A stretch of 64,000 nucleotides of DNA from a virus: the IMG/VR virus record IMGVR_UViG_3300037313_000284, positions 1 to 64,000 of that record. The stretch is one strand, 5' to 3'. The notes under the pieces were generated by a model. That model was not told the origin of the DNA. It worked only from the letters and a program-made list of their open reading frames with translations, and searched no databases. Below, one piece after another: positions 38,217 through 63,477 of the stretch. The translations under genes were made by a program, and so were the position numbers. Each line of letters starts with the position of its first letter. The stretch's first letter is position 1.

Positions 38217-38756
38217 TTAACCGAGTGCTTGACCGGTAACTTTCCACCAATCGTAGCTAAACGGAACCATCCAGAGCGCACCTTGAGCATCCGACGTGGT
38301 ATCGAACTGAAGCTCAGGCATTTCCTGCGGCCACATGTTATGAATAGTAATCTCGATAGCGGTACGACCGGTGCTATCGAACACCTCCAAACGTCCAGTG
38401 GTCGAGTATTCCTTTTTATAACCGCCAGCGTTACCGGTACGCGTACCTTTAACGAATTCTTGCCACGGACGAAGCCAAGCAAGCACGCTAGCGTCAACGC
38501 GTTCAATAAACTGACCAGCAGCAGTGCCCGCGTGCGTAACAGTCGTACCGTAGTTCAACTTGTGACCGCCAGCGAAGCGTTGTTCAAACTTATTAATAGT
38601 GATGCCGGGGATGACGAATTGAGTGCAGTTAAGCGCAACGTCGCGTTCAATATCCAGGCCGGGCGAGCCGGGGACATTGGCTAACGTCAGCTTGAACGAC
38701 TCAAGCGTCAACGGGTCCGGCATATTGTCTTGTTGATCAAGGGTTGCCTTAGGCAC
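38217..38756 (-). CDS. major tail tube protein
   Basis: Directly follows the sheath; PDPL, IPG, F.E, W, YK.EY, NMWP.E..EL.FD and FSYD motifs. Confidence 0.8.
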   Translation of the reverse strand: MPKATLDQQDNMPDPLTLESFKLTLANVPGSPGLDIERDVALNCTQFVIPGITINKFEQRFAGGHKLNYGTTVTHAGTAAGQFIERVDASVLAWLRPWQEFVKGTRTGNAGGYKKEYSTTGRLEVFDSTGRTAIEITIHNMWPQEMPELQFDTTSDAQGALWMVPFSYDWWKVTGQALG

Positions 38757-38813: not shown

Positions 38814-41081
38814 CTAATCGATTTCGTTGACTTCGATACTAGCAATTCCGCCCGTGGACGTAACCGTCGTGCGAACCAGAATACGACGCATAGTACGAAC
38901 CGGATCAAGGATCACGTCAACGATGCGATTACCCTGTTCGATAATACCTGCCGGGTTATTATCGCCGTTAGAAACGATCTCGTACTCGGCAAGATCGCTC
39001 GGCTTATACGGCAGGAGGAACTTATCGATTGCCTGCGTTAAGGCAAACACTTCCACATCGGTGTTACCTTCGAAGACTTTCGTCTTAGAAAGCTGACGAA
39101 TCTTACCTTCGAGGAAACCAACGAGCCTAGTAATCGAGATAAACGAGAAGCCGCTGTCTTTGAACTGCGCCGTGGTGTCACCCCAAACAACAAAGGACAC
39201 GCCTTCGCGTTTAATGATGTTCATCTTCAGGCGAGCGAACAGATGCCCCTCTTGAGTCTCGTCATACTCGTAACGAACGTCAGTGGTATCGATTTGGCCG
39301 CGAGTTAATCCAGCCGGAGCCTTACCAACGCCGCGCGATTGATCGTTTTTACCGTAGACAACAGCAACGTGAGCCGAAGGCGGAACCCAAAGGTCCATAC
39401 CGGTGTACGGGTCTTGTTGCTTAACGTCAGGGAAGTAAATAGCGCCGAATTCACTATCCACCGCTAACTGTTGCAGGCGATAGTTAACAAGCGCTGCGTA
39501 CTTCTGATGCTCCGGAGGAACGTCGAGAATGGCTTCAGTGCCGTCATAACGCGTCTTAGCAACTTCGACCATAGCTTGTTGAATGCTAACGGCCGTATAG
39601 CCGGTATTAACAAGCACGTTGCAGGGATACTTCTGCGTGTTCTCAAACACCTTCCAGGCTTCAGCGAATTGCGCAGCCGAAGGAAGCGTGCCGTCCGAAC
39701 CTGCCGACAACCAAGTGATGCCCGTAGAAATCGCGCCATTGGCAGGATTAAACGGGATAACAACCGAACCGTCATCCGGAGCGTTAGGAATAACGCGGAT
39801 GATGCTCGAAGCGTTGGCACCTTTATTAACCACGTAGTCGATCTTTTGCTGCACGCCAAAAGCGTCGGCGACTTGCGCGAGATTAACGCGGTGACGTTCA
39901 GCGGCAACCGTGGGGTTATCCGTCGTATAGACTTCCAGATCGAAAGCGCCCGACGGACTAACACCCTTCACTTGTTGCGTGAAGGTAACCGCAGGCATCG
40001 AACCGGTAGAAGCAACGGAGAACACCGCGTCGGTCGAGGAACCACGCAGCATCGTAATAACGATTTCACGGTCGTTAGATTCGCCTAACGGACGCTTAGT
40101 AACCACAGCGGTATCAATGTCAACGTGTGCGGTCAGGGCCGCAGCAAGTGCCACTAGGAACGCGTCGCTCGGGGTGATGTTAGACACCGCGCTACACGCG
40201 ACGCCGTTAACAGTAACCGTCGTAGACGAAACGCTACCGACTGCACCAGCAAGCGTCATACGCACGACTTCTTTCGTGCCGACGTCTGCGTTAGTAAGCT
40301 TGTAGCCAATGCCCTTCGAATGCGCACCGGGGTTTTCAGCTTGCACGTAAAACAGCGGGGTTTGCTGCGAAGCGGCAGGCTGCGAAGCACCTCCAGTAAC
40401 CGTAACTCCACTAATTGCAATCTGTTGACCGGAGGGGCCGTAGATGCCAATCGTGCGAGCGTTCGTGCTACTAACTGCGTCCGTATCCATGACGGTGGCT
40501 TTACCGTCGCTACCCAACGAAGCAAGGCCAGCTTCAATAGCAGTAGCTAACGCGGCTAGCGTGGCGTCGTTATTGGTCGCGAAGTTAACCGGACCAACCG
40601 CCACAACTTGGCTATCAGCAATGATATTCAAGTTGATCACGTTGCTGGTAACCAGAGGACCATCGAACGTTAAGGCAATATAGCTAGGGCCGGTCGGAGT
40701 AATGCCGGTCGAAGGATCACTTTCCGCAGGGAAAGCCGAACCCGTCGAAGGGTACTTGTCAGCCGTGACCGTGTTATTAGCAGCGTCCGAGAGAATCGCC
40801 GCACCGCCGTATTTGGCGTTATTAACAACACGATTGAAGATTACCGGGAAACCAGCCTTCAGGATCGTGCGCGCGCCGTAGTGAGCGTAGCTAACCTTAG
40901 GGTTAGGACGACCGAACATGGCGTCAAGTTGTGCCGGACTCGTCAGCATGACGGGCTTGGTAGGACCCTTAAGCGAATAACCGGTAATGGCCGCAACCAT
41001 TCCACCGGTAGCCGAGATAAACGAAGATTGATCCCGACGTTGGCTATAAGCGCCCGCAGCCTCAGGAAAAAGAATAGTCAT
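38814..41081 (-). CDS. tail sheath protein
   Basis: G.S.KGP..PV.LTS......FG.P, AENPG, VPPSAHVA, APAGL.RG, VWGD.T and RL..F.E. Confidence 0.92.
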   Translation of the reverse strand: MTILFPEAAGAYSQRRDQSSFISATGGMVAAITGYSLKGPTKPVMLTSPAQLDAMFGRPNPKVSYAHYGARTILKAGFPVIFNRVVNNAKYGGAAILSDAANNTVTADKYPSTGSAFPAESDPSTGITPTGPSYIALTFDGPLVTSNVINLNIIADSQVVAVGPVNFATNNDATLAALATAIEAGLASLGSDGKATVMDTDAVSSTNARTIGIYGPSGQQIAISGVTVTGGASQPAASQQTPLFYVQAENPGAHSKGIGYKLTNADVGTKEVVRMTLAGAVGSVSSTTVTVNGVACSAVSNITPSDAFLVALAAALTAHVDIDTAVVTKRPLGESNDREIVITMLRGSSTDAVFSVASTGSMPAVTFTQQVKGVSPSGAFDLEVYTTDNPTVAAERHRVNLAQVADAFGVQQKIDYVVNKGANASSIIRVIPNAPDDGSVVIPFNPANGAISTGITWLSAGSDGTLPSAAQFAEAWKVFENTQKYPCNVLVNTGYTAVSIQQAMVEVAKTRYDGTEAILDVPPEHQKYAALVNYRLQQLAVDSEFGAIYFPDVKQQDPYTGMDLWVPPSAHVAVVYGKNDQSRGVGKAPAGLTRGQIDTTDVRYEYDETQEGHLFARLKMNIIKREGVSFVVWGDTTAQFKDSGFSFISITRLVGFLEGKIRQLSKTKVFEGNTDVEVFALTQAIDKFLLPYKPSDLAEYEIVSNGDNNPAGIIEQGNRIVDVILDPVRTMRRILVRTTVTSTGGIASIEVNEID

Positions 41082-42682: not shown

Positions 42683-43771
42683 TTACAGCTTGGCCGCGTA
42701 GGAAACGGCTCGGGCGTTGTGCATCACCATCGAGACAGTTTCTTCCATGTACCAGCCCTTACCGCTAACGCCTTGCGAGTTAGCAGCGTTCAGCGGCAGC
42801 GAAGTCACCGGACCACGGTCGGTATAACCACCGAGTTGATCCGGAGCGCCGAGCGCGAACACGTCGCCCTTCGACAGCACGCGCATCTTAGGATGGCGAT
42901 AAGCGTCAGTGATCAGGCCGAGGCCGAAGATCGAGCCAATGCGGCCCGTCTGAATGATTTCCAGCTTAGTAACCGGATCGAAGAAGTTATCCGGGAACTG
43001 ACCTTGGACCGTAATATCATTCAGGATATCGGTAGCCATCAGCAGGGTCGAAGCGGTAACGCCCCAAGCTTGCAGCGCGCCAACCAGATCGCCAAGATAC
43101 AGGTTGGAGAACGCACCCGACATATAGATCGTCGAGTTAGCAGCAGCCGAACCGGAAGCGGCGCGAGCCATCGCGTAGAACGTAGCATCTTCAGTCTTGA
43201 AGATTTGTTCCAGCGCGTCGAGATACGCGTTATCCAGCAGGTCGCCGGAACCTTGGTTCAGATCGTTAGTATAGACGTACGGCGACGCCTTAATCTGGAA
43301 CTCGTCGGTTTCGATGTACTTATCGCGAACGATGGACAGCGAGGTTTGCGTCGGACCCACGGCTTTAATAGCGCGAGCGTCTTTAACGCGAACTTCGAAG
43401 CGCGGGCGCGAGCCTTGCGCCACTTCACCGCGCAGCAGCAGATTGCGCATGAAACCTTCACGGTCAGCATGCTCAGTCAGCTTACCAGCGATAGTAGCGC
43501 CGATTTCACGCCACGCGACTTGATCGTCGTCAGCGTAAGCGGCGGCCAGCATTTCACGACGGCTTTGAGCGGTAGCAGCGGTCTCTTCCGAGTCGAGCAG
43601 CGCTTGTTCCGTAATAACTTGACCACTCGACATTTGGCCGAGCAGCGACGCAATCATGCGCAGGGCATCTTGCGGATTAGCAGCGTTCAGTTCATTTTGG
43701 TTGTTGAACATGCGCGAACCACGGAACAGTGCGTTCGGCGCAACAGTGGAACCAAGAAGACGGGGCTTCAT
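42683..43771 (-). CDS. major capsid protein
   Basis: 362 aa with strongly biased codons, downstream of the scaffold and decoration genes; REGFMR.LL..G..PRF, E.I...ED and G.IG.I.G...ITD HK97-fold-type pattern. Confidence 0.85.
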   Translation of the reverse strand: MKPRLLGSTVAPNALFRGSRMFNNQNELNAANPQDALRMIASLLGQMSSGQVITEQALLDSEETAATAQSRREMLAAAYADDDQVAWREIGATIAGKLTEHADREGFMRNLLLRGEVAQGSRPRFEVRVKDARAIKAVGPTQTSLSIVRDKYIETDEFQIKASPYVYTNDLNQGSGDLLDNAYLDALEQIFKTEDATFYAMARAASGSAAANSTIYMSGAFSNLYLGDLVGALQAWGVTASTLLMATDILNDITVQGQFPDNFFDPVTKLEIIQTGRIGSIFGLGLITDAYRHPKMRVLSKGDVFALGAPDQLGGYTDRGPVTSLPLNAANSQGVSGKGWYMEETVSMVMHNARAVSYAAKL

Positions 43772-46588: not shown

Positions 46589-47416
46589 CTATTTAAGTCC
46601 GTAAAGCATGGTGCGTAAGTTATAACCGCCAACACCGCCTTCCAAACGTAGAGAGATTCTTTGGTTAGCCGCGAAGGGATATTCCACTATAAGGTTGTCA
46701 CGAGTGATGATTAACACACCAGACGCGCCGACAAACATTGGAAACTTCGCGATAAGCACTTCAGTGTCAGCAGCCGCACCTTGTGTAGCAACACCGACAT
46801 GCATAACTAGCGCGTCGGCAACTGGAGCCGCCGTGCTATCGGTCGGTAAAATCATTAATGCGTTATAAGTGGTGGATAGGTTATGTACCACAGTCCACGA
46901 ACCACTGCCGCTAGCAACCGCCGGAATATCCGGAAGGTCTGCGCGAGTGTTAGAAGCCGCGCCAGTTAGCGTCGTCATCGTAGTGAAGCCAGGCGGGTCT
47001 TGTGAGTTAGCAACATACCCGTCTAGGAAAGCTTCAATACCAGTTGAGGTAGCGCCGGTGGTCTGCGCCCTCATAACAATCGTCGAGTTAGCAGGAACCG
47101 CTAACGGAACGTCAATAGTTTGATAGCCGCCTAAGTTAAGGAAACCATATAGGTTTAGACAGTGCCACGTTGTTCCGTTATTAAACGAAATATCGAACAA
47201 CGTACGGCTGCTACTAGTGCCAAATAAGTTGACGAAAAGTTTGAACCCGCACCAAGCTTGCGTGTTCGAACCCATCGAGACAGGAGTAACAGTCTTTGAG
47301 CTCGAACCGCCCGTCGCGATCTGTGTTCCACGGGCGTTAGCTAATTGGCCTAAGATTTCACGTGAACGTTGCGGGTTCCTGGGGGCGCTGCCCCCAGGGG
47401 TTATTAAATAACTCAT
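46589..47416 (-). CDS. virion appendage protein with two beta-sandwich domains
   Basis: Beta-rich with an internal duplication (PLAVPANSTIVMR / YPFAANQRISLR); TAATG-coupled to the upstream anchor-family gene. Confidence 0.55.
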   Translation of the reverse strand: MSYLITPGGSAPRNPQRSREILGQLANARGTQIATGGSSSKTVTPVSMGSNTQAWCGFKLFVNLFGTSSSRTLFDISFNNGTTWHCLNLYGFLNLGGYQTIDVPLAVPANSTIVMRAQTTGATSTGIEAFLDGYVANSQDPPGFTTMTTLTGAASNTRADLPDIPAVASGSGSWTVVHNLSTTYNALMILPTDSTAAPVADALVMHVGVATQGAAADTEVLIAKFPMFVGASGVLIITRDNLIVEYPFAANQRISLRLEGGVGGYNLRTMLYGLK

Positions 47417-47925
47417 TACGCCACCCGATAAGTTAGGCGTCCATGGATTTGACCCGCCAACGAAGCCTTCAACACGAAGCTTTTACTAAGTTGCGACGTG
47501 TAATAGGCCGGTGAGTCTTCAAACGCCAGAACGATACCGCCACCAGCAGCTAACGGAATCGTTTCTAAGACGGCAGGTGAACCTTCCGCCGTTGTAGCAT
47601 CCATCACATCAATAGTAATCACGCTAGCGCTCGTATTATAGAGACGCAGACGTGGAACATGAATGATCTTACCCGCTTGTGCAGGCACAATGGCTTGTTC
47701 AGCGGTGCTGTTGAAGTTAATACGGCTACCGAAATAAGTGAAAGCTGTTACGCCGCCGCCTCCCGTACCGTTTTCGGTTATCGTGATATGCTGATCTTGA
47801 ATCCACTGTGCCAGCTTACCCACATCGTAGGCGTCAGGCATCGTGATAGCTTCGCCAGGAGCCAACCTAAGATCGGGCGGAATGCGCAGCGCGTAGGCGC
47901 GTAAGTTAGTAATGGTATAAGACAT
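47416..47925 (-). CDS. anchor-family virion protein
   Basis: N-terminus MSYTITN...LAPGE.ITMP, poly-Gly linker, beta-sandwich. Confidence 0.6.
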   Translation of the reverse strand: MSYTITNLRAYALRIPPDLRLAPGEAITMPDAYDVGKLAQWIQDQHITITENGTGGGGVTAFTYFGSRINFNSTAEQAIVPAQAGKIIHVPRLRLYNTSASVITIDVMDATTAEGSPAVLETIPLAAGGGIVLAFEDSPAYYTSQLSKSFVLKASLAGQIHGRLTYRVA

Positions 47926-47938
47926 TTGTCCGCCTTCC

Positions 47939-49111
47939 TTACGTCGTGGTCTTTAGATTAATACCGGTAAGTTGGCCGGTATTGGCGATTTTACGTCGCC
48001 ACCGCAGTGGAATGTCTTTGGTCGTACCGGCAGGAGCACCGACCGTAACGATTTGCAGCGTTGCGGCTTGAGCCTTAGTTAATACGACTGACTGACCTTT
48101 AGTCACATTGACGTAAGGAGTACCAACGTCAAAGGCGATATCTACAGGGTTGTCATGTCCACCGTTATTAGTAAACGATAGCGTATGCTTGTCCTGTTCC
48201 GTAGGCGTGAAGGTGACCACCACGCCATTAGAGTTTTCCACCATAGTAACGGTGGCAGAAGGTGAGAACGAACCCGCAAACGTACTAGCCACAGTCACGG
48301 TAAACGGTGAGAACACAATACCGTTAGGGCTTAGCAGTATGTCAATCGGCGAACCGACTGGATGCGGCCCTGGAGTTAATACTTGCGCTGTTAGCGTAAG
48401 TTTCGGAGGCCACTGGTTAGTGTCAGCGTCAGTGACGTTAGCTCCACCGGAGTTCTTAGCCCACGCTTGACCGGAACCCCGATTGGGGTTGCCGGTGTTC
48501 CAAGTCGTAGCCTTTCCTAATAGGAAAACAGGTGGCGTGACACTGAATGGACGTTCGGCGTTGAGTCCAATATATTCTGCCCGGAATTTATCTAAGTTCG
48601 TAGGATCACTAAGATTAGTCCATTGGCCCGGCCACAGGATAAGCGTACCAAATACTAACGATTGCGGGTTTGGCGTGTTAGCAGAACCCATGAACTGTTG
48701 TGTGGTAGTAACACTCGCCCAATTCGCCGACGCGTTTTGGGTATAGGTACCTTGCACAAATCCAACCGCAGGCACGTAGTCGATATACAACTGCATGCCT
48801 TGCGCCGAAGGTAACGAGGAGTCAACCACCAGAAGATAAGTGTGGTTGACTCCGTTCATTAATCCGGTAGGTGTGTCCATCCGGCCGCAGAAGGTATTGA
48901 ACCTAATGCGGCCGGTGTTTAGCACTTGGATACTACAAATAGCAGAACCCGCCGAAGCTCCCATCAAGTTATAAGTGGCCGACGGAACCGATGGGATAGC
49001 TAAGTCTAATAAGTACACGGCTTTAGTGCTAGTCAGGTTTTGGATGCCGCCCGTAGTGGATTGCGTCCATAGCTGACTAGCGTTGGTTTGAATATGAGGA
49101 AACTTACTCAT
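47939..49111 (-). CDS. LamG/ConA-like lectin-domain appendage protein
   Basis: GRIRF...NG.NH..LLVVD...LYID pattern; paralog of the C-terminal part of 49108..52485. Confidence 0.6.
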   Translation of the reverse strand: MSKFPHIQTNASQLWTQSTTGGIQNLTSTKAVYLLDLAIPSVPSATYNLMGASAGSAICSIQVLNTGRIRFNTFCGRMDTPTGLMNGVNHTYLLVVDSSLPSAQGMQLYIDYVPAVGFVQGTYTQNASANWASVTTTQQFMGSANTPNPQSLVFGTLILWPGQWTNLSDPTNLDKFRAEYIGLNAERPFSVTPPVFLLGKATTWNTGNPNRGSGQAWAKNSGGANVTDADTNQWPPKLTLTAQVLTPGPHPVGSPIDILLSPNGIVFSPFTVTVASTFAGSFSPSATVTMVENSNGVVVTFTPTEQDKHTLSFTNNGGHDNPVDIAFDVGTPYVNVTKGQSVVLTKAQAATLQIVTVGAPAGTTKDIPLRWRRKIANTGQLTGINLKTTT

Positions 49112-52100
49112 GGCTGTTCGAACCTAACCGTGTACGGCGCGTCTGCCGGAACGTTAATAGTGATAAGATTGCCGGTCGGGCAAGTGCTGAGGTCTAGGTT
49201 TAGGTTAGTCTTCGCCGTTAGCGGCAGCGCCTTAGTCACCGGCTTGAACGAGTTGACCGGGTTAATATTGTACCCGCTACCCGAACCATCCGTTGCACGA
49301 ACCTGAATGTCAGGTAAGTCAACGTCCAGATTTTGCGCCGCAGCGATAACGCGAAGCGATTCAGCACGAGAACGCGTAATCGTTACCGTCGATCCGGCAG
49401 GAATATCAACGTAGTTATCAATCGCCGTAAACGACAGACCCGTTGGGTTGAAATATCCACCAGTATTAGTAATCGAAATGTTGTGAACGCCGGGGGCAGT
49501 GGGAGTAAAGCGAAGCACCACACCGTCACGCCCAACGGGCATTGGCGCGGGATTAACTTCCCAAAATCCTGCCTTATCACTTACCGGTATTACGTCTAAC
49601 GATTTCGACGTGCCGATAGGTTGCACAAGGATTTCTACGGGCTGGTACCCGTAGTGAACACCTTGCGTTAGTTTCTCCATCGACATGTATAGGTTAGGCG
49701 GCCAAACACTAGTATTACCTGTCGCATTGGTGAAGGGGTTAGTACCACCTTTGATCCAATTGTTAGGCGACGTCGTACCACGTTGTGCGATGCTGTTATT
49801 AAAGTCAGCAGCAGCACCAGTAATAAAGATCGGAGCGGGTTCACCGAACGGACCTTCGCCGCGAGGGCCAAGGTTAGCTGCACGGAACAAGTCAATGTTC
49901 TCTTGCACGTCCAGATCAATCCACTTGCCGGGCCACAGAGCGTAAAGACCGATACCGCCAACAAACTTATCACCCGTACCACCACCAATAGTTTGCGGCG
50001 GACAGATAGTAAGCGTTCCAGCGACGTCGACATTAGTCCAGTCGGCGATTTCGTCTGGCCTCCAAGTAGACCCGGTAAAATCGGGGTCCACGCGCTGGAA
50101 GTCCACGGCGAGGCGAACACCTAACGCGTTAGTAGGCTGAGACGTATCGATAGTTATCAGAATGTGGTGCGGTTGACCATCCAAGACGTTTAGTACGTCC
50201 ATACGCGTACCGGGAGCGTAGAAACGAAGCTTACCGGTAGATGTAACCGTGCAGTTGAATTGGTGGCTACTAGAACTCGCGCCGCCCGTAATGCGGACGT
50301 CTTTGGTACCGTTTAGCGCGACAGTCGAAGAGACCACCATTGCAATGGTTAGTAACTTCGATTGAACGCCGGGGGCGAGACCGCCTGAAACGTTTTGCGC
50401 TAGGTAGTTAGTGCCGTCGAAGTTAACCAGCGGGAAGCCGATAGGGTCAATCGTCGTGGCTTTCCACGAGAAACTATCAGAGCCAACCGTAACTGTGACA
50501 AGCTTAGAAGTAGCCGGAGTAACTGCGGTGGTCGTACGCAATTGGATAAAATTGCCGTGCGTAACGTTCCCCGGAGCCGAAGTCCAATCTTGTAAGATCG
50601 TGGTCCCGTTCTTATCACTGGAAAGACGATACTCGCCGCCGGTGATACTAATCGACCGAGTCTGCCTGCCGCAGTTCACGAAGTGGAAATCACTTCGTTG
50701 ATCAGCGGTATTAACAGGTAGACCAACCTTGTGCGCGAAACCAACGAACGCCGGTAATTCGGAATACGGCTTAACGGTACCAGACCAACGCGCGAGGAAC
50801 GTAGACAACGTGTCGCCGAAACGCACCGGCCCGTAATTGGCGTACTGCGCTTTGGGGACGAAGGTTTCTACTAACTTGGCAGGAGTATCCACCAAGTTCC
50901 AGTCAGCAGGCGTGTTATAAACCTGCGAATACGCGTCAAGCGTCTGCGGAGTTCCGGTGAGCACCTGAATGTTCGGGGCGGTGTTAGCGTCTAGCGACTT
51001 GCCGCTAGAGACTGATTCCGCGATATTGTAACCAGCATAGCTACGACCTGGGTAGAACGGGTCGGAGGTTACGCTAATCCGAGAACCGGAAACGTTGGCG
51101 GCGGTGACACCCGTAATAGGGTTAGTAACTTGCTCGTTGTCTTTGGCAACGTTGGAAATGGGGTTGGCTAAGAACGCGTTACGGAAAATAACGCACCCAG
51201 CCGCTCCGGTGTAACCATCGTTGGAAATAATACAAGCCGTACTAGACACGCGACTTAAAGCTAGGTTGTCGGCGATAATAACACCAAGGTGAGGTGCGCC
51301 GGGCGGAACGTCCGATAGGAAGAAACGCTGATGCTGACCGCGCGCGTTAGGTTGCATGCCAGTAATATTACCAGCGATGATCAGGTTTTCGATGGGCGTA
51401 GTCGAGTCGGTTGGGCCAGGGGTGATTTGTTCAGCTTTAGTAATCGTAGCCGTGGCAACCGTAGCGCCTGAACTGTTAAGGAACGTAGCCGCACTTGCCG
51501 TCGGGACGTTGCTAGGAGCAATAAGCACGTATGCTTGGCCGGGTCCGACAACGTAGATATTAGCTCCGTTAGCCTTACCAGTAGAGTCAGTGTAGCCAAC
51601 AACACCATTCGACGTGGGGATAGTACCGGTGACGCCTGACAGCCAGAGTTTATAACCGCCAACGTCGCGGCTGAAAATCTGCACGCAGTCGCCGTGTGGG
51701 TTGAAGTAGTCTTGTGGCTGAGCGAACGAATCCCAAAAGATATTACCAGTGATTTCGATTAACGGCACACGTGGGAAAGCCCCACCGTTAAAGCCGAACG
51801 AAATGAAATCCTGGTAGAAACGCTGCATGATATTCTTGCGGAAAACGATATTAGCGTTACCGTTGTGCGAGAATTTAATACAGTCGCCGCCGTCTTCGAA
51901 CAGGCAGTTTTCCACCCACATAGAGCCAGTAATAGAACCGGCTAGCGCTTCCGCCGTCGACATACAGCCGATCATGCGCGGATAACAACCGAAACCTCTG
52001 TGATAAGGCTCTTGTCCGCCAGCCCCGTCGGAACGATAGCCTTCAATTACCGGCTGTTGATTAGTAGCGGTATTACCGACGTAGGTGCGGTACTTGGTAG

Positions 52101-52485
52101 CGTCCGTCACGTCGATAGGTGCGTAGTTGTCTTCGTAAAGACCGCCACGAGCATGGACGTTATTAATGATCAAGCCGTCAGTGTTGTACTGCAACGAGAT
52201 CAGGTCGCCCTTACGACGAGACGAATACTGCGCGTAAGGCTGCGGGTTACCAACCATCTGGATTTTGAAACCATCCAGTGTGATGTTAGTAGAAGCGCCA
52301 ACCCAGATACGCGGAATCTTCGGCAACCGAGGGGTTTGGCCGAAGATAGTAATGTTGTTTTTGCTAGGGACGGTTAACAAAGTGTCGAAGACCCCATCGT
52401 CTAACAGACGAATGGAATCCCCGCTCACCGATTCATTAATCCGCTGTTGGAATTCAGCAGAAGTACCCGCATTTCTAACAGTCAT
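49108..52485 (-). CDS. large appendage protein: right-handed beta-helix (lyase/depolymerase-like), LamG-like and Ig-like domains
   Basis: GDSIRL..G.F, NITI.G, NITLDGF, VENCLF, ITGNIF and PHGDCVQ beta-helix signatures. Confidence 0.7.
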   Translation of the reverse strand: MTVRNAGTSAEFQQRINESVSGDSIRLLDDGVFDTLLTVPSKNNITIFGQTPRLPKIPRIWVGASTNITLDGFKIQMVGNPQPYAQYSSRRKGDLISLQYNTDGLIINNVHARGGLYEDNYAPIDVTDATKYRTYVGNTATNQQPVIEGYRSDGAGGQEPYHRGFGCYPRMIGCMSTAEALAGSITGSMWVENCLFEDGGDCIKFSHNGNANIVFRKNIMQRFYQDFISFGFNGGAFPRVPLIEITGNIFWDSFAQPQDYFNPHGDCVQIFSRDVGGYKLWLSGVTGTIPTSNGVVGYTDSTGKANGANIYVVGPGQAYVLIAPSNVPTASAATFLNSSGATVATATITKAEQITPGPTDSTTPIENLIIAGNITGMQPNARGQHQRFFLSDVPPGAPHLGVIIADNLALSRVSSTACIISNDGYTGAAGCVIFRNAFLANPISNVAKDNEQVTNPITGVTAANVSGSRISVTSDPFYPGRSYAGYNIAESVSSGKSLDANTAPNIQVLTGTPQTLDAYSQVYNTPADWNLVDTPAKLVETFVPKAQYANYGPVRFGDTLSTFLARWSGTVKPYSELPAFVGFAHKVGLPVNTADQRSDFHFVNCGRQTRSISITGGEYRLSSDKNGTTILQDWTSAPGNVTHGNFIQLRTTTAVTPATSKLVTVTVGSDSFSWKATTIDPIGFPLVNFDGTNYLAQNVSGGLAPGVQSKLLTIAMVVSSTVALNGTKDVRITGGASSSSHQFNCTVTSTGKLRFYAPGTRMDVLNVLDGQPHHILITIDTSQPTNALGVRLAVDFQRVDPDFTGSTWRPDEIADWTNVDVAGTLTICPPQTIGGGTGDKFVGGIGLYALWPGKWIDLDVQENIDLFRAANLGPRGEGPFGEPAPIFITGAAADFNNSIAQRGTTSPNNWIKGGTNPFTNATGNTSVWPPNLYMSMEKLTQGVHYGYQPVEILVQPIGTSKSLDVIPVSDKAGFWEVNPAPMPVGRDGVVLRFTPTAPGVHNISITNTGGYFNPTGLSFTAIDNYVDIPAGSTVTITRSRAESLRVIAAAQNLDVDLPDIQVRATDGSGSGYNINPVNSFKPVTKALPLTAKTNLNLDLSTCPTGNLITINVPADAPYTVRFEQP

Positions 52486-53357
52486 TGGATATACCTCACT
52501 GTCAGCGGGAAGCCCGCCGGGACAGTTACTTGCACTGTGTCGGTAAGATTATCGAAAGCGAACGATAGATCGTTCGCACTATCGTTGATGACCGGCGCAT
52601 CAATGGTCTGCACAGTAGGCACAACTACGTCGGGGATAATATCAAACCTGATGCGAAGCGACTTAATAATCGTTCCTTCAGTCCAATAAACTATCATGCT
52701 GCCAACGTCATCGCCGGGAGCGTCGCTAGCAGTCACCGCCGCAAGGCTAGCGGCTTGCGCCTGAGAAAGCACTGCGGATTGACCTGGATTAATCGTGCTA
52801 GAGTTGGAAGTCACTAACAACGAAACTGTGCTGCTGGCGTCAACCGAAACTGTTACTGCTGGATTGCCGCTTTGAATAGCAGTTAGTAAACTCGATAATG
52901 CGGCCTGCCCGGTTTGCGCCAAAGTAGTTTCCACTGACGCTACCGAAAGGGTACGAACGTTAACTCCGTTCAGTGATCCACTTTCCCCAATACTAGCGCG
53001 CCAACGAAACTGCACAGTGCGGTCATCGTTCGGCGGAGCCGCCGAAGACTTAATCCGTAGTGTCGCAGCTTGGACTTTAGTGATTTGGGTTTGCAGACCC
53101 GGCAAGAGCGCTACGTAGCTAGCACCTGACAGATATTCAATATCGTAGTACGGCGTACCATTCGGCAGCGTAACTGTAACCTTATTATTAGTAGGAACAG
53201 AAGTCAGGTCCAAGTTTAGCGGAATAACAGCTACGTCCGCCACCTGCACCAGCATGTTCGTAATGACACCCGGAGGAATCGGCACAGACTGCCTCTTCGC
53301 CGTAGTGATGAACTTGTTATTAGTGCCAGCATTGCCAACACCACCAAGCAGTGACAT
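52482..53357 (-). CDS. repeat-domain appendage/adaptor protein
   Basis: About 2.5 copies of a beta module that also occurs at the ends of the two downstream genes. Confidence 0.6.
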   Translation of the reverse strand: MSLLGGVGNAGTNNKFITTAKRQSVPIPPGVITNMLVQVADVAVIPLNLDLTSVPTNNKVTVTLPNGTPYYDIEYLSGASYVALLPGLQTQITKVQAATLRIKSSAAPPNDDRTVQFRWRASIGESGSLNGVNVRTLSVASVETTLAQTGQAALSSLLTAIQSGNPAVTVSVDASSTVSLLVTSNSSTINPGQSAVLSQAQAASLAAVTASDAPGDDVGSMIVYWTEGTIIKSLRIRFDIIPDVVVPTVQTIDAPVINDSANDLSFAFDNLTDTVQVTVPAGFPLTVRYIQ

Positions 53358-53374
53358 AGCTATATCCTTAAATA

Positions 53375-53821
53375 CTAACCTGTAATCGTCGGGACGATGA
53401 ACAGCTTTCCGTTTTCCGACATTTGGACGTAGCCTAGTTTTTGTCCGGGCACGATTTGCAAATGCATCTTCTCGCCACCTAGTAACGGAATGCAGCCCGC
53501 CACCGCGCCGATACCCGTGGCAGTATCCGGGTCCGCTTGGATAGTAATAAACATATCCTTAGTAGCGCAGACCAAAATTTCACGCGAAGTCAAGGCGGGA
53601 GTCTTTTGCGGCGTATCAGTAACGTCTAACGCAAAGCAATTGGCGGGCGTGAAGTTGTATTGACGGGTCGTAGCATCAAACGAACTAACTTCAACCAACC
53701 CTTGAGTAACGGCGTCATTAAGTTCTACCGGAAGGATGGGGAAAAGCCGCGTTTCATGCGGACCCATAACGAACGTGCCACTACCAATCGTGGTGTCAGT
53801 TCTGTTCCAAACAACGTACAT
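53375..53821 (-). CDS. anchor-family virion protein
   Basis: Full-length paralog of 54463..54897 (GEKMHLQIVPG / GERFHLQITPG). Confidence 0.65.
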   Translation of the reverse strand: MYVVWNRTDTTIGSGTFVMGPHETRLFPILPVELNDAVTQGLVEVSSFDATTRQYNFTPANCFALDVTDTPQKTPALTSREILVCATKDMFITIQADPDTATGIGAVAGCIPLLGGEKMHLQIVPGQKLGYVQMSENGKLFIVPTITG

Positions 53822-53878: not shown

Positions 53879-54442
53879 TTAGATCAGGGGATCGCTATTC
53901 GACATGGTTAGCGACCAAGCAAAAGCCGACGCCGCCGGGGCACCGGTCACCTCGCATTTAATAATCAACGGTTCCATATCATCTACTTCGATAAGCGACG
54001 ATATGCGTTGCCGTCCTGACACAGCCGCACCGAAGGCGAGAGTTAGCGCTGTCGCGACGTTATTCTTCATAACGGTAAACGTGCGCGAAGTACCCGCACC
54101 CGGAACAACTGCCAACACGCATTGTAGGTTATAAATACGCTTCTTTCGGTTTGGGTAAATTTGCTGGTTAGCGGTAGCGCTCGGAACCACGTTAGCGCCG
54201 AATAACGGCAAGTATTGCGTCACCGTTCCGAGCAACGAACCTGCCGCTACGTATCCATGCATATCATACGTTAATAGCGGCGGTTCATCGAGACTTGCCG
54301 CCGAAAGTTGTCCCGACACTAAACCAGGACTTAAGTCTACCGGCAGGGTAACGGTGTTCATCACGACGCCACGGCCTGCCGCTAAAGACAGAGACGCAGA
54401 ATTCCAAGCAGAAGGACCTGCGTTAGTAATATAGTACGGCAT
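53879..54442 (-). CDS. anchor-family virion protein
   Basis: MPYYITNAG...SLSLAAG.....TLPVDLSP.L..GQL, then a beta-sandwich. Confidence 0.65.
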   Translation of the reverse strand: MPYYITNAGPSAWNSASLSLAAGRGVVMNTVTLPVDLSPGLVSGQLSAASLDEPPLLTYDMHGYVAAGSLLGTVTQYLPLFGANVVPSATANQQIYPNRKKRIYNLQCVLAVVPGAGTSRTFTVMKNNVATALTLAFGAAVSGRQRISSLIEVDDMEPLIIKCEVTGAPAASAFAWSLTMSNSDPLI

Positions 54443-54462: not shown

Positions 54463-54897
54463 CTACACGATCGACTTGACGGGAACGACGAATAGCGCGC
54501 CACTGGTAGTGAACTGAAGCACCGAAACTTTGTCACCGGGCGTGATTTGCAGATGGAAACGTTCACCAGCTGGAAGGTAAGTGCTACCAGCCACGTCCGC
54601 TGCGTCAGGCGTTGCGCCGACGGTGAAATAACAAGCGACCGTAGAGATCACCATAATCTCAAAAGCGTTAATAGCAGCCGAATCATTATTAGACGAGCCG
54701 ACGGCGACACGTTGACCGTTAGACCACTCGTACGTACGAGTGGTGTTACCAAGGTCAATGATTTCTACCGAACGCGAACGAACAAGTTCATCCATGTCTT
54801 CCGGAAGCGACGGAAGAATAAGCGTTTCGCCAGCCGCTATTTCAATCGAACCCGCACGGCGACTGCCTGCGGAAATATTAGTGATACGATATGACAT
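54463..54897 (-). CDS. anchor-family virion protein
   Basis: MSYRITN.....SIEIAAGETLILPSLPEDM. Confidence 0.65.
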   Translation of the reverse strand: MSYRITNISAGSRRAGSIEIAAGETLILPSLPEDMDELVRSRSVEIIDLGNTTRTYEWSNGQRVAVGSSNNDSAAINAFEIMVISTVACYFTVGATPDAADVAGSTYLPAGERFHLQITPGDKVSVLQFTTSGALFVVPVKSIV

Positions 54898-54925: not shown

Positions 54926-55705
54926 TTAACTGTCGCCTAAGTGAAGTAGATGCTCAGGCGACACGTGTGCCGCTGCCCAAGCCGGGGTGGGGTGGACGCA
55001 ACTAAGCTCGAACCCGCGAATGAAATCGCAAATGTAGTGAGCTAAGACCGGACCGCGGTCCGGAGTATTGAAAATGCGCATCGTCCTATTATCAAGGCTA
55101 ATGTGCTCACAACCGTTTTGTGCTTTGGTTGGGCGATGCCCGCACACTGCGCATTCGTAACTACCGACCGAAGCACCCATCGAATAGTGAGAGTATTCAC
55201 CGGTTAGGATGTTATTAGCTAAAACCGGATCACGAGTACGGTCACAGCCATAAAGCGCAACCGCCTTCCACACTTTCTGATTAGTACCAGCTAGCGGAAG
55301 CATGCGGGTATCGAACACCGCGCCCTTAGCGTTAGTCGGGTCATCATTAACGTGATTGAAATGCGTAGGCCTACGCTTCCACGTTTCATAACCCAAGCAC
55401 GCTAGGTCCAGATCGAACCGACCCATGCTAGCTAGTGAGAACGCCACGCCATTACGATTAGGTAGCGCCGTAGGAAACATAATAACCGGAGTGATTACGT
55501 AATCTCTAATGTCCCTAGAGATATTGTATTCAGCGGCGGCGGCTTCCAACCAACCGGTTCCCAATTCTCGACCTAGGTTAGTATCTAGTCCCGCCGTTTC
55601 AAAAGACATTCTGGCACGCGACTCATTGCCCTTAAGAATGTCGTGCATTTCAAATGCTTGTAACCCAGGTTCCTCACAGAACCCTAGTTCGATAGACCTT
55701 TCCAC
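54926..55705 (-). CDS. prohead maturation protease with a Zn-finger insertion
   Basis: PNRNG.AF, HFNH, YSMGA (catalytic Ser-like), CAVCG...CEH and FELSCV..PA; AGGAG RBS 8 nt before the in-frame GTG at 55705. Confidence 0.75.
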   Translation of the reverse strand: MERSIELGFCEEPGLQAFEMHDILKGNESRARMSFETAGLDTNLGRELGTGWLEAAAAEYNISRDIRDYVITPVIMFPTALPNRNGVAFSLASMGRFDLDLACLGYETWKRRPTHFNHVNDDPTNAKGAVFDTRMLPLAGTNQKVWKAVALYGCDRTRDPVLANNILTGEYSHYSMGASVGSYECAVCGHRPTKAQNGCEHISLDNRTMRIFNTPDRGPVLAHYICDFIRGFELSCVHPTPAWAAAHVSPEHLLHLGDS

Positions 55706-55775
55706 AGTCGCAACTCCTAACCTATGGGCGACGTTTGGTTCGCTTATTAAATTAGCGTTAGGCGGCATTTTAGAC

Positions 55776-55809
55776 AAGAAAAAGCCCCGTAGCGCGGGGC
55801 TACGGGGCT
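55776..55809 (-). terminator. intrinsic terminator
   Basis: Minus strand AGCCCCGTAGC-CCCGC-GCTACGGGGCT followed by TTTTCTT. Confidence 0.8.
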
Positions 55810-61635: not shown

Positions 61636-63477
61636 CTAGGCGTCGTTCTCAGCCTTCAGGTTAATGTAAAGGCGAACTTCTTCGAGACGAACGTCTTGGT
61701 TCAATGTATCCGCTGCGTCACCCACAACGCGGGTAATCGTAATTATCAACGTGATCTTGCCGGACGTAGCGCCCGCTGCTGTAACGGCTGTGCTTTCCGG
61801 AGTGTAGTATTCGTTATTGCCCGTACCTGCTGTTTTAGTAACTACGACTTCTGTTCCACTAGCAGCGTCCTTAGCATAGTTATCAGCTAAGGCTACTGCC
61901 TTTAATCCCCACGCGACGCCACCAGCGCCCGTAGTTATTTGCGAGAACTTGACGTCGAACGTAAAGGGGCCGCCGTCCCAGCTAGACGGCATGGGGACAC
62001 GAGCTTGGGCTCTTTCTGGTGTCGTAGGGTCGAAATTGAGCGTCGACACCATGATTTTATTAGTCGGCAGTTCAACTTCTACAGCTTCAGGCCCGTTAGT
62101 TAACTGCCGGAAGAATTGCGACACATGAATTGGAAGCATGTGTTTATCAGGTGAGATTTGCTCACCGTTAACACGCACAGTGTTGCCCGTACCGGACGTA
62201 GCTCTACCGATTGTACTAGGGGAAGCTGAATTCTTATCGGTATCAATACGGCCAGTGTTATTAGATGACGTATTGCCGATATAGAACCCGTGAGTAGAGT
62301 AGTTAGTAGTACCGTGCGAACCGACACCAATAGAACACCCGTAGAATCGGTTATCATCCGATGCCCCGGATAAACACCAACCCGCACGAGTCTGTGCGCT
62401 GTTGTCAGAGCCAAGACCATCAGCCGGATACAGACACCCAGCGTCTGTAGCACGACAGCCAGTAAAATTGTTGCGCTTTGCGTCAAACAGATACCAAACG
62501 CAACCCCAACTTTCAGCACCTTCGCAATTCACAAAGTGATTGTTAGTAGCGCCGTTTAGCGACCAGCAGCAATACTCAGAAACAACGGCGTTGACCGGAG
62601 CGTAACCGCACCTAAAGCCTCGACAATTACTAAAGAAATTGCGAGTCGCACTAGTCCACAGATAAAACGCGGGGCCGTATGCTTGCGCGGTAACGTTAGA
62701 GAACGTGTGATCGTTGGAGTTAAGGTCGATCCCGTAGCCGCAATTGAAAATCGCGACGTCACTAACTGTCGTACGGCTGATGCCGAGTAGCTTAATCGCC
62801 GCTCGGCCGTACTCACGGATGACCAGATTATCAAGACCAGGCCTGTTATTACTAGTAGCTCCACTATAGTCTAGATTGATGCAGTCAATGTCTTTGAGAA
62901 CGTTGCCGCTTCCATCCGTGTGGAAATCACGCATGCCGTGGAAGATAACATTCTGGATATTGACTGAATCGAATAAAGACGCGGGTTTGACATGGTATTT
63001 ATTAACAGTAGCTGAGCCGGGCTTCAGGACTAACCCTGAAGCATTACGTCCGATACCAACAATCGGAGAAAAGCCATAAACCGTAAGCGGTCCGGTGATG
63101 TAGTAGTCATCCAGTAATACTGATCTGGAGTTGTGTGCGGCAGCGTAATTAATAGCGTTCTGCACTGCAACCGTATCGTCTTCGCCGATAAGCACCTGCG
63201 CGGTACCAGTCAACGCCAACACGGCGGGGGTAGCCAACGTAACTTGCGTAGCAGACGTGTAAGCTTGAATGGTGGTCGTAAGTACCTGACCGCTAGTATT
63301 AGCCACGGCTACGTAAATGGGGCGACCCACGTCAGTGGGTTTGAACGAACCAGCCGGGCCGGTAAGGACAGCAGAACCCGCTGTAGTCGTAGCGCCGGAA
63401 ATACGGCGCGCGCCGCCTACGGCACCAAACCGTTTCGGTGTAATAATACCTAAACGCTCAGTCGTGATCGTAACCAT
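61636..63477 (-). CDS. tailspike/depolymerase with a pectate-lyase-3-type beta-helix and a C-terminal beta-sandwich
   Basis: P..FGAVG [inserted domain] DDT.AVQNAIN, G.GRNASGL and repeated N.F.NC/GC rungs. Confidence 0.75.
   Translation of the reverse strand: MVTITTERLGIITPKRFGAVGGARRISGATTTAGSAVLTGPAGSFKPTDVGRPIYVAVANTSGQVLTTTIQAYTSATQVTLATPAVLALTGTAQVLIGEDDTVAVQNAINYAAAHNSRSVLLDDYYITGPLTVYGFSPIVGIGRNASGLVLKPGSATVNKYHVKPASLFDSVNIQNVIFHGMRDFHTDGSGNVLKDIDCINLDYSGATSNNRPGLDNLVIREYGRAAIKLLGISRTTVSDVAIFNCGYGIDLNSNDHTFSNVTAQAYGPAFYLWTSATRNFFSNCRGFRCGYAPVNAVVSEYCCWSLNGATNNHFVNCEGAESWGCVWYLFDAKRNNFTGCRATDAGCLYPADGLGSDNSAQTRAGWCLSGASDDNRFYGCSIGVGSHGTTNYSTHGFYIGNTSSNNTGRIDTDKNSASPSTIGRATSGTGNTVRVNGEQISPDKHMLPIHVSQFFRQLTNGPEAVEVELPTNKIMVSTLNFDPTTPERAQARVPMPSSWDGGPFTFDVKFSQITTGAGGVAWGLKAVALADNYAKDAASGTEVVVTKTAGTGNNEYYTPESTAVTAAGATSGKITLIITITRVVGDAADTLNQDVRLEEVRLYINLKAENDA

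What the first reader, a model, noticed from the sequence alone, without database searches (positions are those of the whole stretch)
47939..53357. One repeated domain split twice at the same loop across three genes: a possible fold-complementation chain for appendage assembly
Seen: define half B as LNLDL...VTVTLP..TPY.I.Y and half A as YV....G....ITK.QAATL.I. Gene 52482..53357 has B-A contiguous (LNLDLTSVPTNNKVTVTLPNGTPYYDIEY-LSGAS-YVALLPGLQTQITKVQAATLRI), a second more degenerate B-A, and ends on a lone B (VQVTVPAGFPLTVRYIQ*). Gene 49108..52485 starts by ATGA overlap and carries about 1000 aa of cargo, then a lone A (YVDIPAGSTVTITRSRAESLRV, near 49413), and ends on a lone B (LNLDLSTCPTGNLITINVPADAPYTVRFEQP*). 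Gene 47939..49111 also starts by ATGA overlap, carries cargo, and ends on a lone A (YVNVTKGQSVVLTKAQAATLQI...LRWR...GQLTGIN, matching FRWR...GSLNGVN in gene 1). With both cargos removed, the parts read as a clean (B-A)x4 protein. Inference: each split domain is completed in trans, so cargo modules plug in through the B/A loop and the three proteins link in fixed order, like donor-strand complementation. Such a split pair could also serve as a protein-coupling tag.
Basis: partly seen in the sequence, partly recalled or inferred. Interest (0 to 1): 0.75.

Follow-up and report, generated by a model that had tools for sequence, protein, structure and literature searches.

The report
Split Ig domain links phage fibre proteins
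Three neighbouring genes of an uncultured large phage share one small Ig-like domain cut at the same hairpin into two halves carried by different proteins. The same cut recurs in eight unrelated metagenomic phages, so the halves most likely snap together to join successive host-binding proteins into one branched appendage.

Summary
All four A halves and all four B halves in genes 52482-53357, 49108-52485 and 47939-49111 (minus strand) are significantly similar, including the "degenerate" second B. Nothing else in the 141-kb phage record carries either half.

AlphaFold2 folds the contiguous B1-A1 of gene 1 as one nine-strand Ig-like sandwich (pLDDT 83-94). B supplies strands 1-4 and A supplies strands 5-9. 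It did not fold the downstream B2 back onto A1.

The strongest evidence is comparative. In eight independent metagenomic loci, every gene whose product carries A is immediately preceded by a gene whose product ends in B. Three of these upstream proteins are only 48-62 residues long and are little more than a lone B. A sits after the cargo or, in one case, before it. The cut always falls in the strand 4-5 hairpin.

Best reading (about 0.6): a non-covalent split-domain connector that joins P1 to P2 to P3 in gene order. The result would be a four-bead stalk with two host-binding branches.

Main rival: the middle protein closes its own A-B in cis, and only the outermost halves pair in trans. The single complex prediction gave no answer. 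No biochemical evidence exists. No such connector turned up in the families or papers searched.

The parts
53259..53357 (-). P1 residues 1-33: N-terminal peptide ahead of the first strand; candidate anchor of the whole chain
   Evidence: Residues 22-69 of P1 align to the 59-aa and 62-aa lone-B proteins of loci L009 and L007 (E 5e-4 and 6e-6). pLDDT is low in the model. The anchor role is inferred.
53121..53258 (-). P1 B1 (res 34-79): strands 1-4 of the first intact Ig-like domain
   Evidence: AF2 strands at model 9-14, 17-21, 34-38 and 46-52, pLDDT 83-94. 32.3 bits against an HMM built from other loci only.
52944..53120 (-). P1 A1 (res 80-138): strands 5-9 plus a short helix, completing domain 1 in cis
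   Evidence: AF2 strands at model 55-59, 64-68, 76-80, 87-97 and 101-113. Structural matches span model 4-115 as one domain. 44.6 bits.
52800..52943 (-). P1 B2 (res 139-186): degenerate B, first half of the second domain
   Evidence: 22.7 bits against an HMM from other loci; best of 1000 shuffles 9.2. Closely resembles the terminal B of relative P0038. Coil in the truncated AF2 construct, which lacked A2.
52620..52799 (-). P1 A2 (res 187-246): second A, contiguous with B2
   Evidence: 45.2 bits. BLASTP to P3 A gives E 1e-3.
52485..52619 (-). P1 B3 (res 247-291): lone B at the extreme C-terminus; proposed donor to the A of P2
   Evidence: 18.8 bits against a best shuffle of 14.3. Ends 2 residues after the conserved aromatic, as every free B does.
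50437..52485 (-). P2 res 1-683: cargo, a right-handed beta-helix region resembling a polysaccharide lyase or hydrolase
   Evidence: A profile of 40 family members hits the PL6 alginate lyase 7dmk (E 6e-6) and weakly a GH28 enzyme. One relative hits Pfam Beta_helix. P2 itself has no Pfam, PHROG or NCBIfam hit.
49705..50436 (-). P2 res 684-927: cargo region shared with P3 (ConA/LamG-like by a relative's hit)
   Evidence: P2 684-1074 aligns to P3 4-386, 31% identity, E 4e-39. One relative hits Laminin_G_3.
49420..49704 (-). P2 res 928-1022: complete Ig-like (intimin/Big-type) domain directly before A
   Evidence: AF2 pLDDT 89-97. VIA-align Z about 10 to intimin, invasin and GH2 Ig domains over model 1-97.
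49243..49419 (-). P2 A (res 1023-1081): lone A half; proposed acceptor of P1 B3
   Evidence: 28.8 bits against a best shuffle of 8.0. In the P2 monomer model the first three strands have pLDDT 85-93 and the last strands 47-68.
49111..49242 (-). P2 B (res 1082-1125): lone B at the extreme C-terminus; proposed donor to the A of P3
   Evidence: 36.3 bits. BLASTP to P1 B1 gives E 1e-4.
48416..49111 (-). P3 res 1-232: cargo, paralogue of the P2 684-927 region
48122..48415 (-). P3 res 233-330: Ig-like domain before A
   Evidence: Aligned with the P2 Ig domain and with relatives through the conserved FTPT..G.HT.SFTN motif. Weak Filamin hit.
47942..48121 (-). P3 A (res 331-390): lone A that ends the protein; no B follows, so the chain stops here
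   Evidence: 60.1 bits. 38% identical to P1 A1, E 6e-12. The same 'A ends the protein' form occurs in P0037, P0029, P0039, P0079, P0030, P0044 and P0059.
52482..52485 (-). ATGA stop/start overlap between P1 and P2
   Evidence: Sequence read.
49108..49111 (-). ATGA stop/start overlap between P2 and P3
   Evidence: Sequence read.

Best explanation
B (about 45 aa, strands 1-4) and A (about 60 aa, strands 5-9 plus a short helix) are the two halves of one roughly 105-aa Ig-like beta-sandwich. The cut lies in the tight strand 4-5 hairpin.

P1 is an adaptor made of a short N-terminal peptide, two intact B-A domains and a free B at its C-end.

P2 is a beta-helix (polysaccharide-lyase-like) plus lectin-like plus Ig cargo, followed by a free A and then a free B. 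P3 is a shorter paralogous cargo that ends in a free A.

A half sandwich cannot bury its core alone. So each free A is completed non-covalently by the free B of the protein encoded just upstream: P1-B3 with P2-A, and P2-B with P3-A.

The result is a stalk of four Ig beads, two intact and two composite. The two cargos branch off at the split hairpin. P3 has no B, so it ends the chain.

Translational coupling (ATGA overlaps) would make the partners together.

Shown:
- The halves, their significance and their placement.
- The one-domain fold of contiguous B-A (model only).
- The gene-order rule in other phages.

Inferred:
- Actual binding.
- Sequential rather than skipping pairing.
- The role as a branched receptor-binding appendage, probably on the tail.
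- Anchoring through the P1 N-peptide.
For: (1) Counts close exactly. There are four A and four B in the window and none elsewhere in the 141-kb record.

(2) AF2 of P1 26-188 gives pLDDT 83-94 for B1+A1, with nine strands. B2 stays coil at about 68-70, although all B-only alignment rows sat on B2.

(3) All VIA-align matches cover model 4-115, in B-then-A order, as one Ig-like domain (Z up to 7.5).

(4) Gene-order rule: 11 of 11 links, in the window plus loci L003, L004 (two links), L005, L007, L009, L011, L013 and L014.
- The B-ending gene lies directly upstream on the same strand, with gaps of -4 to +107 nt.
- These B and A copies all beat 1000 shuffles in leave-one-locus-out HMMs.

(5) Lone-B proteins of 62, 59 and 48 aa (L007, L009, L014) are too small to fold as a domain. 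Each sits right before a protein of about 1030 aa that ends in a lone A.

(6) In L004, a protein ending in B is followed after 8 nt by a protein that starts with A at residue 3. This reproduces across a gene boundary the contiguous B-A junction of P1.

(7) Every free B ends 1-5 residues after the conserved aromatic, so the cut is always in the same hairpin.

(8) AF2 of P2 928-1125 alone does not form a complete cis domain. The last A strands, the junction and the first half of B have pLDDT 43-68.

(9) Tail-fibre context.
- The closest full-length relative of P2 sits directly after Mu-type baseplate genes.
- The P2 family profile hits a PL6 lyase beta-helix.
Against: - There is no experimental or confident in-silico evidence of binding.
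- In the P2 monomer model, the last two strands of its own B are confident (pLDDT 81-86). They may pack on its own A, so partial cis closure is not excluded.
- No model coordinates were available. The argument that a linker of about 4 residues cannot span from strand 9 back to strand 1 is inference from strand count and Ig topology.
- The alignments behind the models are shallow (17-18 rows of fragments).
- The 48-aa lone-B protein of L014 has almost no extra sequence. In such minimal systems complementation cannot by itself attach the cargo to anything else, so linkage may not be the only role.
- The three genes lie between the prohead protease and the major capsid gene, so a head appendage is not excluded.
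- In L005 the gene after a B-ending protein is cut off before any A could be seen.
Confidence: 0.6

Rival explanations
1. Cis-permuted middle links. Wherever A is followed by B in one chain (P2; P1 A1-B2 and A2-B3; relatives P0038, P0032), the domain closes in cis as a circular permutant. Only the first free B (P1 B1, or a lone-B mini-protein) and the last free A (P3) pair in trans. P2 is then not held by this module.
For: - In the P2 monomer model the last two B strands are confident, pLDDT 81-86.
- A and B abut with short, length-conserved junctions on both sides.
- Both phases leave exactly one free B and one free A in the window.
Against: - AF2 chose B1-A1 and left B2 unfolded despite an alignment biased towards B2.
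- The cis model of P2 leaves strand 9 and strands 1-2 unformed, pLDDT 43-68.
- B-then-A is the canonical Ig strand order in all structural matches.
- The model would leave P2-type proteins unattached, and would require partners to skip one or more genes in L004 and the window.
- The P0038/next-gene boundary places B and A exactly as in contiguous B-A.
Confidence: 0.2
2. Complementation occurs, but its role is control of folding or assembly rather than linkage. The upstream B acts as a small, separately made clip that licenses folding or oligomerisation of the big protein's C-terminus. Attachment to the virion uses other surfaces.
For: Lone-B proteins of 48-62 aa carry little or nothing besides B. 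Small assembly factors encoded next to fibre genes are common in phages (general knowledge).
Against: - In the window, and in L003, L004, L005, L011 and L013, the B donor is itself a large structural-looking protein. These carry Ig repeats, collagen-like repeats, or cargo plus A.
- P1 carries two further intact beads.
- Proteins with both A and B followed by another A-bearing gene are hard to explain without chaining.
Confidence: 0.12
3. No trans pairing. The halves are remnants of gene fission, decay or assembly error. Or the genes are fused by recoding at the ATGA overlaps, so that the cargo is a loop insertion within one polypeptide.
For: ATGA overlaps would allow a -1 shift from P1 into P2 and from P2 into P3.
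Against: - The same split occurs in nine loci from different samples with intact ORFs.
- Both halves are conserved.
- Junctions in relatives include gaps of +8, +9, +61 and +107 nt and a double stop codon, which rules out a general fusion by recoding.
Confidence: 0.05

Closest known systems
Donor-strand complementation/exchange in chaperone-usher pili (Fim, Pap, CFA/I)
   Same: An incomplete Ig-like fold is completed in trans by the neighbouring subunit, giving an ordered non-covalent chain. Pilin domains of FimH, CupB6 and CfaE are among the structural neighbours (Z 6.3-7.2).
   Different: - Four of nine strands (about 45 aa) are donated here, not one.
- The donor is a C-terminal half domain, not an N-terminal extension.
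- No chaperone or usher genes were seen.
- The parts are phage structural proteins.
- The Z values are generic for Ig-like folds, so homology is not indicated.
Chain-like fibres of podophages GP4, VP1 and A1002 (rope protein plus fibre dimers)
   Same: Small Ig-like fibre units are strung together because a separately encoded 'rope' segment forms an augmented beta-sheet with each unit (PMC13730344). GP4 fibre chain 8jou_D is a structural neighbour (Z 6.2).
   Different: There one rope carries many identical dimers by strand augmentation. Here each junction is a heterotypic half-and-half domain between successive, different gene products that carry large cargos.
Branched tailspike complexes (CBA120 TSP1-4, G7C gp63.1/gp66, Klebsiella phage RBP systems)
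   Same: Several depolymerase-type receptor-binding proteins encoded side by side are assembled into one branched appendage (PMC7506556 and PMC6872550, listed).
   Different: Those use folded N-terminal anchor/adaptor domains (T4 gp10-like, XD domains). Here the connectors are C-terminal, or in one case N-terminal, halves of a single Ig domain. No Pfam or PHROG family matches.
T4 long tail fibre gp34-gp35-gp36-gp37
   Same: Consecutive genes encode proteins that join end to end in gene order (general knowledge).
   Different: There is no evidence here of trimeric fibre shafts or of the T4 junction domains, and no sequence similarity was found.
SpyTag/SpyCatcher and other engineered split Ig-like (CnaB) domains
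   Same: An Ig-like domain cut in two reassembles and couples two proteins.
   Different: That system is engineered and covalent (isopeptide). No invariant Lys, Asp/Asn or Glu is present in the A or B alignments, so a non-covalent natural pair is expected here.

Membership tests
Ig-like beta-sandwich fold (for contiguous B-A) | Two-sheet antiparallel sandwich of 7-9 strands matching solved Ig-like domains over the whole unit | tested here: met
   AF2 gives nine strands at pLDDT 83-94. VIA-align Z 6-7.5 over model 4-115 to many Ig-like domains. Foldseek hits FimH/FmlH-type domains, E about 1e-4. This is a model only, and the Z values are in the generic range.
Chaperone-usher pilin (donor-strand complementation) | Fold lacks only the last (G) strand, which is supplied by an N-terminal extension of the next subunit | tested here: not met
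   The missing part is the first four strands. It is supplied by a C-terminal segment of the preceding gene's product.
Chaperone-usher pilin (donor-strand complementation) | Dedicated periplasmic chaperone and outer-membrane usher genes in the operon | tested here: not met
   No such Pfam or PHROG hits among 20 neighbouring proteins of the window. The context is a phage structural module.
Branched tailspike adaptors (T4 gp10-like / CBA120-type N-terminal modules) | Folded N-terminal anchor or gp10-like docking domain on each spike | tested here: not met
   The shared connector modules are C-terminal in P1, P2 and P3. P1-P3 have no Pfam, PHROG or NCBIfam hit. The HMM absence alone would be inconclusive.
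Rope-and-dimer chain-like fibre (GP4/VP1/A1002) | One rope protein augmenting the sheets of many copies of a small fibre dimer | tested here: inconclusive
   Only a generic fold match to 8jou_D (Z 6.2). The gene content differs, with large and different cargos and no repeated small fibre gene. Oligomeric state is not testable here.
Split intein | N-part at the C-end of one extein, C-part followed by a C-extein starting with Cys/Ser/Thr, and catalytic Cys/Ser and His-Asn motifs | tested here: not met
   A usually ends the protein with nothing after it (P3 and seven relatives). No such motifs appear in the alignments. The fold is Ig-like.
Isopeptide-forming split CnaB-type domain (SpyCatcher-like) | Invariant Lys, Asp/Asn and catalytic Glu | tested here: not met
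   There are no invariant Lys, Asp/Asn or Glu columns among 15 A and 14 B copies (alignments printed).
Polysaccharide lyase family 6-type beta-helix (P2 cargo) | Right-handed parallel beta-helix with the PL6 catalytic and Ca-binding residues | tested here: inconclusive
   The family profile hits 7dmk at E 6e-6 over profile positions 21-202. One relative hits Pfam Beta_helix. Catalytic residues were not examined and P2 alone gives no hit.

The most novel reading that the evidence does not exclude
Phages carry a natural, portable, non-covalent split-Ig 'plug and socket'.
- Any protein ending in B captures the next gene's A-bearing protein.
- Receptor-binding cargos can therefore be daisy-chained in gene order and swapped as cassettes at gene boundaries.
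- Several B/A pairs within one virion are specific enough to fix the order.

Such pairs would be ready-made orthogonal protein-coupling modules.
Probability: 0.45. Interest if true: 0.85.

Novelty: new variant of a known kind. Interest (0 to 1): 0.72.

Why it matters
If the halves do assemble in trans, this is a simple and so far undescribed way for phages to build multi-protein host-recognition appendages. A single small domain is cut at one hairpin and serves as a universal joint, with the cargo hanging from the joint.

It would explain how depolymerase and lectin modules are added, removed or exchanged by recombination at gene boundaries without redesigning interfaces. That bears on host-range evolution and on engineering phage receptor-binding proteins.

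It would also give annotators a rule. A C-terminal B predicts a partner gene downstream, and A marks the partner. The rule covers a family that today has no Pfam, PHROG or NCBIfam model and no cultured representative.

The natural half-domain pairs could be tested as non-covalent coupling tags.

Tried and rejected
- Complex prediction: P2 928-1125 with P3 233-390, own alignments. Verdict 'no answer' (ipSAE 0.00 in both runs; controls not run). This counts neither for nor against binding.
- Database searches that found no relatives:
  - Nothing related in the INPHARED phages for the DNA, P0001, P0002 or P0029.
  - Only self-hits for P0001 and P0003 in the 5.8-billion-protein search.
  - The profile search for longer proteins returned only P0001, P0079 and the L004 upstream protein, because candidates were crowded out.
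  - The search for related loci with the Ig+A alignment found nothing in viral or metagenome contigs.
- No Pfam, PHROG or NCBIfam family for P1-P3.
- The ESM Atlas's own model of P1 is unusable (pLDDT 0.33), and its feature hits are only generic viral clusters.
- BFVD and Atlas fold searches gave only generic Ig-like matches.
- Alignment limits: MAFFT could not make a clean alignment with full-length P1 or in B-then-A order. It split B rows between repeats or laid the second half of B on A. I therefore folded a B1-A1-B2 construct instead of whole P1.
- Rejected ideas:
  - Split intein and isopeptide chemistry. No motifs were present and A often ends the protein.
  - Fusion by recoding. Relatives have intergenic gaps and a double stop.
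  - Kinship between A or B and the N-terminal motif of five small neighbouring proteins (hhalign probability 1.3% and 0.2%).
- Literature searches for donor-strand or fold complementation in phage fibres found no description of this arrangement. The library is partial, so this is weak evidence of novelty.

Full report
**What the window is.** The window is the first 64 kb of a 140,864-bp IMG/VR virus record that CheckV rates 68% complete. It encodes:
- a tail sheath (38814-41081);
- a tail tube (38217-38756);
- a major head protein (42683-43771);
- a prohead protease (54926-55777), all on the minus strand.

The nearest cultured capsid relatives are the roughly 193-kb Rhizobium phages of the RHEph12 group (38% identity) and Erwinia/Xanthomonas jumbo phages at 34%. 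So this is a large, uncultured myovirus.

The three genes of the finding lie between the protease and the capsid gene:
- P1 = 52482-53357 (291 aa);
- P2 = 49108-52485 (1125 aa);
- P3 = 47939-49111 (390 aa).

They are joined by ATGA stop/start overlaps. None has a Pfam, PHROG or NCBIfam hit.

**Check of the observation.** The repeated segments are real.
- BLASTP gives E 6e-12 for P1-A1 vs P3-A, 1e-3 for P1-A2 vs P3-A and 1e-4 for P1-B1 vs P2-B.
- Leave-one-out HMMs from window copies separate every copy except B2 from 2000 shuffles.
- With HMMs built solely from other loci, all eight window copies pass, B2 included at 22.7 bits against 9.2 for the best shuffle.
- No other A or B exists in the 141-kb record.

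Two refinements apply. P3 as a whole is a paralogue of P2 residues 684-1074 (E 4e-39), so gene 3 is a shortened copy of the distal part of gene 2 without the terminal B.

**What the unit is.** I folded P1 residues 26-188 (B1-A1-B2) with an 18-row alignment in which all B-only rows lay on B2. The alignment therefore favoured the A-B phase.
- AlphaFold2 nevertheless made B1+A1 the compact unit. It has nine strands and one short helix at pLDDT 83-94, and B2 stayed coil at about 68-70.
- All VIA-align neighbours span model residues about 4-115, in B-then-A order, as one Ig-like sandwich (best Z 7.5).
- The neighbours include pilin domains of FimH, CupB6 and CfaE, MSP and intimin domains, and a fibre chain of phage GP4.
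- The Z values are in the generic range, so this assigns a fold, not a family. Foldseek, BFVD and Atlas searches agree on a generic Ig-like fold.

B thus supplies strands 1-4 and A supplies strands 5-9. The junction is a two-residue hairpin turn between strands 4 and 5.

**Relatives.** An exhaustive HMMER search with P2 found 220 relatives.
- In seven of them (P0037, P0029, P0039, P0079, P0030, P0044, P0059), A ends the protein, as in P3. It comes right after a conserved Ig-like domain.
- In two of them (P0038, P0032), A is followed by a terminal B, as in P2.

I fetched the contigs and scanned the neighbouring genes. In every locus where the upstream gene is visible, its product ends in B:

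| Locus | Upstream B-ending protein | Downstream A-bearing protein |
|---|---|---|
| L003, L011 | Ig-repeat proteins | P0037, P0079 |
| L004 | a 356-aa protein | P0038 |
| L005 | a protein of more than 1023 aa ending in A-B | P0032 |
| L013 | a 290-aa collagen-like protein | P0030 |
| L007, L009, L014 | mini-proteins of 62, 59 and 48 aa, little more than B | P0029, P0039, P0044 |

- In L004, P0038 itself ends in B. The next gene starts 8 nt later and begins with A at residue 3, followed by a beta-helix cargo.
- Counting the two links in the window, this makes 11 links out of 11.
- Every free B stops 1-5 residues after its conserved aromatic residue.
- The first 79 residues of P1 align to the 62-aa and 59-aa mini-proteins (E 6e-6 and 5e-4). 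P1 therefore reads as such a starter fused to two cargo-less links.

**Mechanism.** A five-strand half sandwich at the end of a 390-1180-aa protein, or a 48-aa four-strand fragment, cannot be a stable domain alone. The only complementary pieces in each genome are in the adjacent gene. Trans completion of the fold is therefore the simplest reading for at least one pair per locus (my estimate about 0.85).

For the window I favour the sequential chain P1-B3 with P2-A and P2-B with P3-A, for these reasons:
- It keeps all partners adjacent.
- It attaches every protein.
- It matches the B|A gene boundary of L004.
- AF2 did not fold B2 back on A1.
- AF2 of P2 928-1125 alone gave only a partial closure. 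The last A strands, the junction and the first half of B have pLDDT 43-68 (segment 145-157 below 50). Only the last two B strands are confident at 81-86.

With nine antiparallel strands, the end of strand 9 and the start of strand 1 should lie at opposite ends of the sandwich. A junction of about four residues then could not close the domain in cis. This is inference, because no coordinates were available.

The product would be a four-bead stalk with two branches leaving at the split hairpins.

**What the cargos are.**
- A profile of 40 family members hits a PL6 alginate lyase beta-helix (E 6e-6) and weakly filamin Ig domains.
- Single relatives hit Pfam Beta_helix and Laminin_G_3.
- P2 928-1022 models as a complete intimin/Big-type Ig domain (Z about 10).
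- The closest full-length relative of P2 (P0004, 37% identity, without A or B) sits directly after Mu-type baseplate genes.
- The window gene 46589-47416 is homologous to the gene just upstream of P0004 in that locus.

This points to host-surface polysaccharide-binding or -degrading appendages, probably on the tail. The position between protease and capsid genes leaves a head appendage possible.

**What failed or remains open.**
- The single complex prediction (P2 928-1125 with P3 233-390) returned no answer and is not evidence either way.
- No cultured phage carries the family.
- Pattern-based locus searches found nothing.
- The 48-aa lone-B protein has no obvious anchor, so in minimal systems complementation may serve folding or assembly control rather than linkage.
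- How order is enforced among four similar pairs is unknown.
- The downstream genes of L004 and L005 are cut off before their ends.

**Comparison with the known.** The logic is that of donor-strand complementation in chaperone-usher pili. Within phages it resembles the sheet augmentation between a rope protein and fibre dimers in GP4, VP1 and A1002 (PMC13730344). The outcome resembles the branched tailspike complexes of CBA120-type and Klebsiella phages (papers listed).

It differs from all of them in these ways:
- Nearly half a domain is exchanged.
- The donor is C-terminal.
- The junctions are heterotypic and follow gene order.
- The cargo hangs from the cut hairpin.

No intein or isopeptide features are present. 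I found no description of this arrangement in the searchable literature. I rate it a new variant of a known kind, well supported by comparative genomics and modelling but untested biochemically.

Noticed in passing
window 63477-63974, 54463-54897, 53879-54442, 53375-53821, 47416-47925 (all minus strand): Five small proteins (144-187 aa) share an N-terminal motif of about 50 aa (M-x-Y-x-I-T-N ... L-x-x-A-x-G ... L-P-x-D/E-L). Pairwise BLASTP E values range from 8e-22 to 3e-5. Three of them sit directly upstream of P1 and one directly downstream of P3. hhalign finds no kinship to A or B (probability 1.3% and 0.2%).
   Followed up: partly
window 46589-47416 (-): This 275-aa protein is homologous (29% over 272 aa, E 4e-19) to the gene that sits directly upstream of P0004, the closest relative of P2, in locus L012 (6964-7872). 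That hints at a conserved fibre-associated partner.
   Followed up: no
proteins P0025, P0035, P0011, P0005, P0007 (relatives of P2 without A or B): These relatives end instead in a short amphipathic strand after an Arg, for example ...RTLSLGLSLSL, ...GSLAMRIGIGL and ...SMSLGLTLQL. This could be a different, single-strand docking signal in the same protein family.
   Followed up: no
L007:7570-8001, L009:1856-2110, L014:4691-4882: The lone-B mini-genes follow proteins of 314-407 aa with Gly-rich tails (ending ...MMLGGLG, ...MTMMGVG, ...AMLMGV). The B reading frame stays open 16-82 codons upstream of the called start and overlaps the end of that gene. Whether some B is made as a fusion by frameshifting was not examined.
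   Followed up: no
L012:1-3949: The locus of P0004 carries a full Mu-type baseplate set (Pfam GpP-like, Phage_Mu_Gp45, GP46, Baseplate_J, Phage_Mu_Gp48), then four unknown genes and then the P2 homologue. This places the family in the tail-fibre position.
   Followed up: partly
window 61636-63477 (-): A second spike-like protein (613 aa) whose N-terminus hits a PHROG annotated 'pectin lyase activity' (E 7e-19). It lies in a tightly packed five-gene unit led by one of the small N-motif proteins.
   Followed up: no
window 36509-37273 (-): An HNH homing-endonuclease-like gene (PHROG E 1e-48) is inserted among the tail genes just downstream of the tube gene region.
   Followed up: no
alignments of B and A copies: MAFFT repeatedly laid the second half of B (VTVTVP...P..Y) on the strand 7-8 region of A (..I.T...P.G...V.LRW). 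This may reflect an old internal duplication within the sandwich, or just strand-like composition.
   Followed up: no
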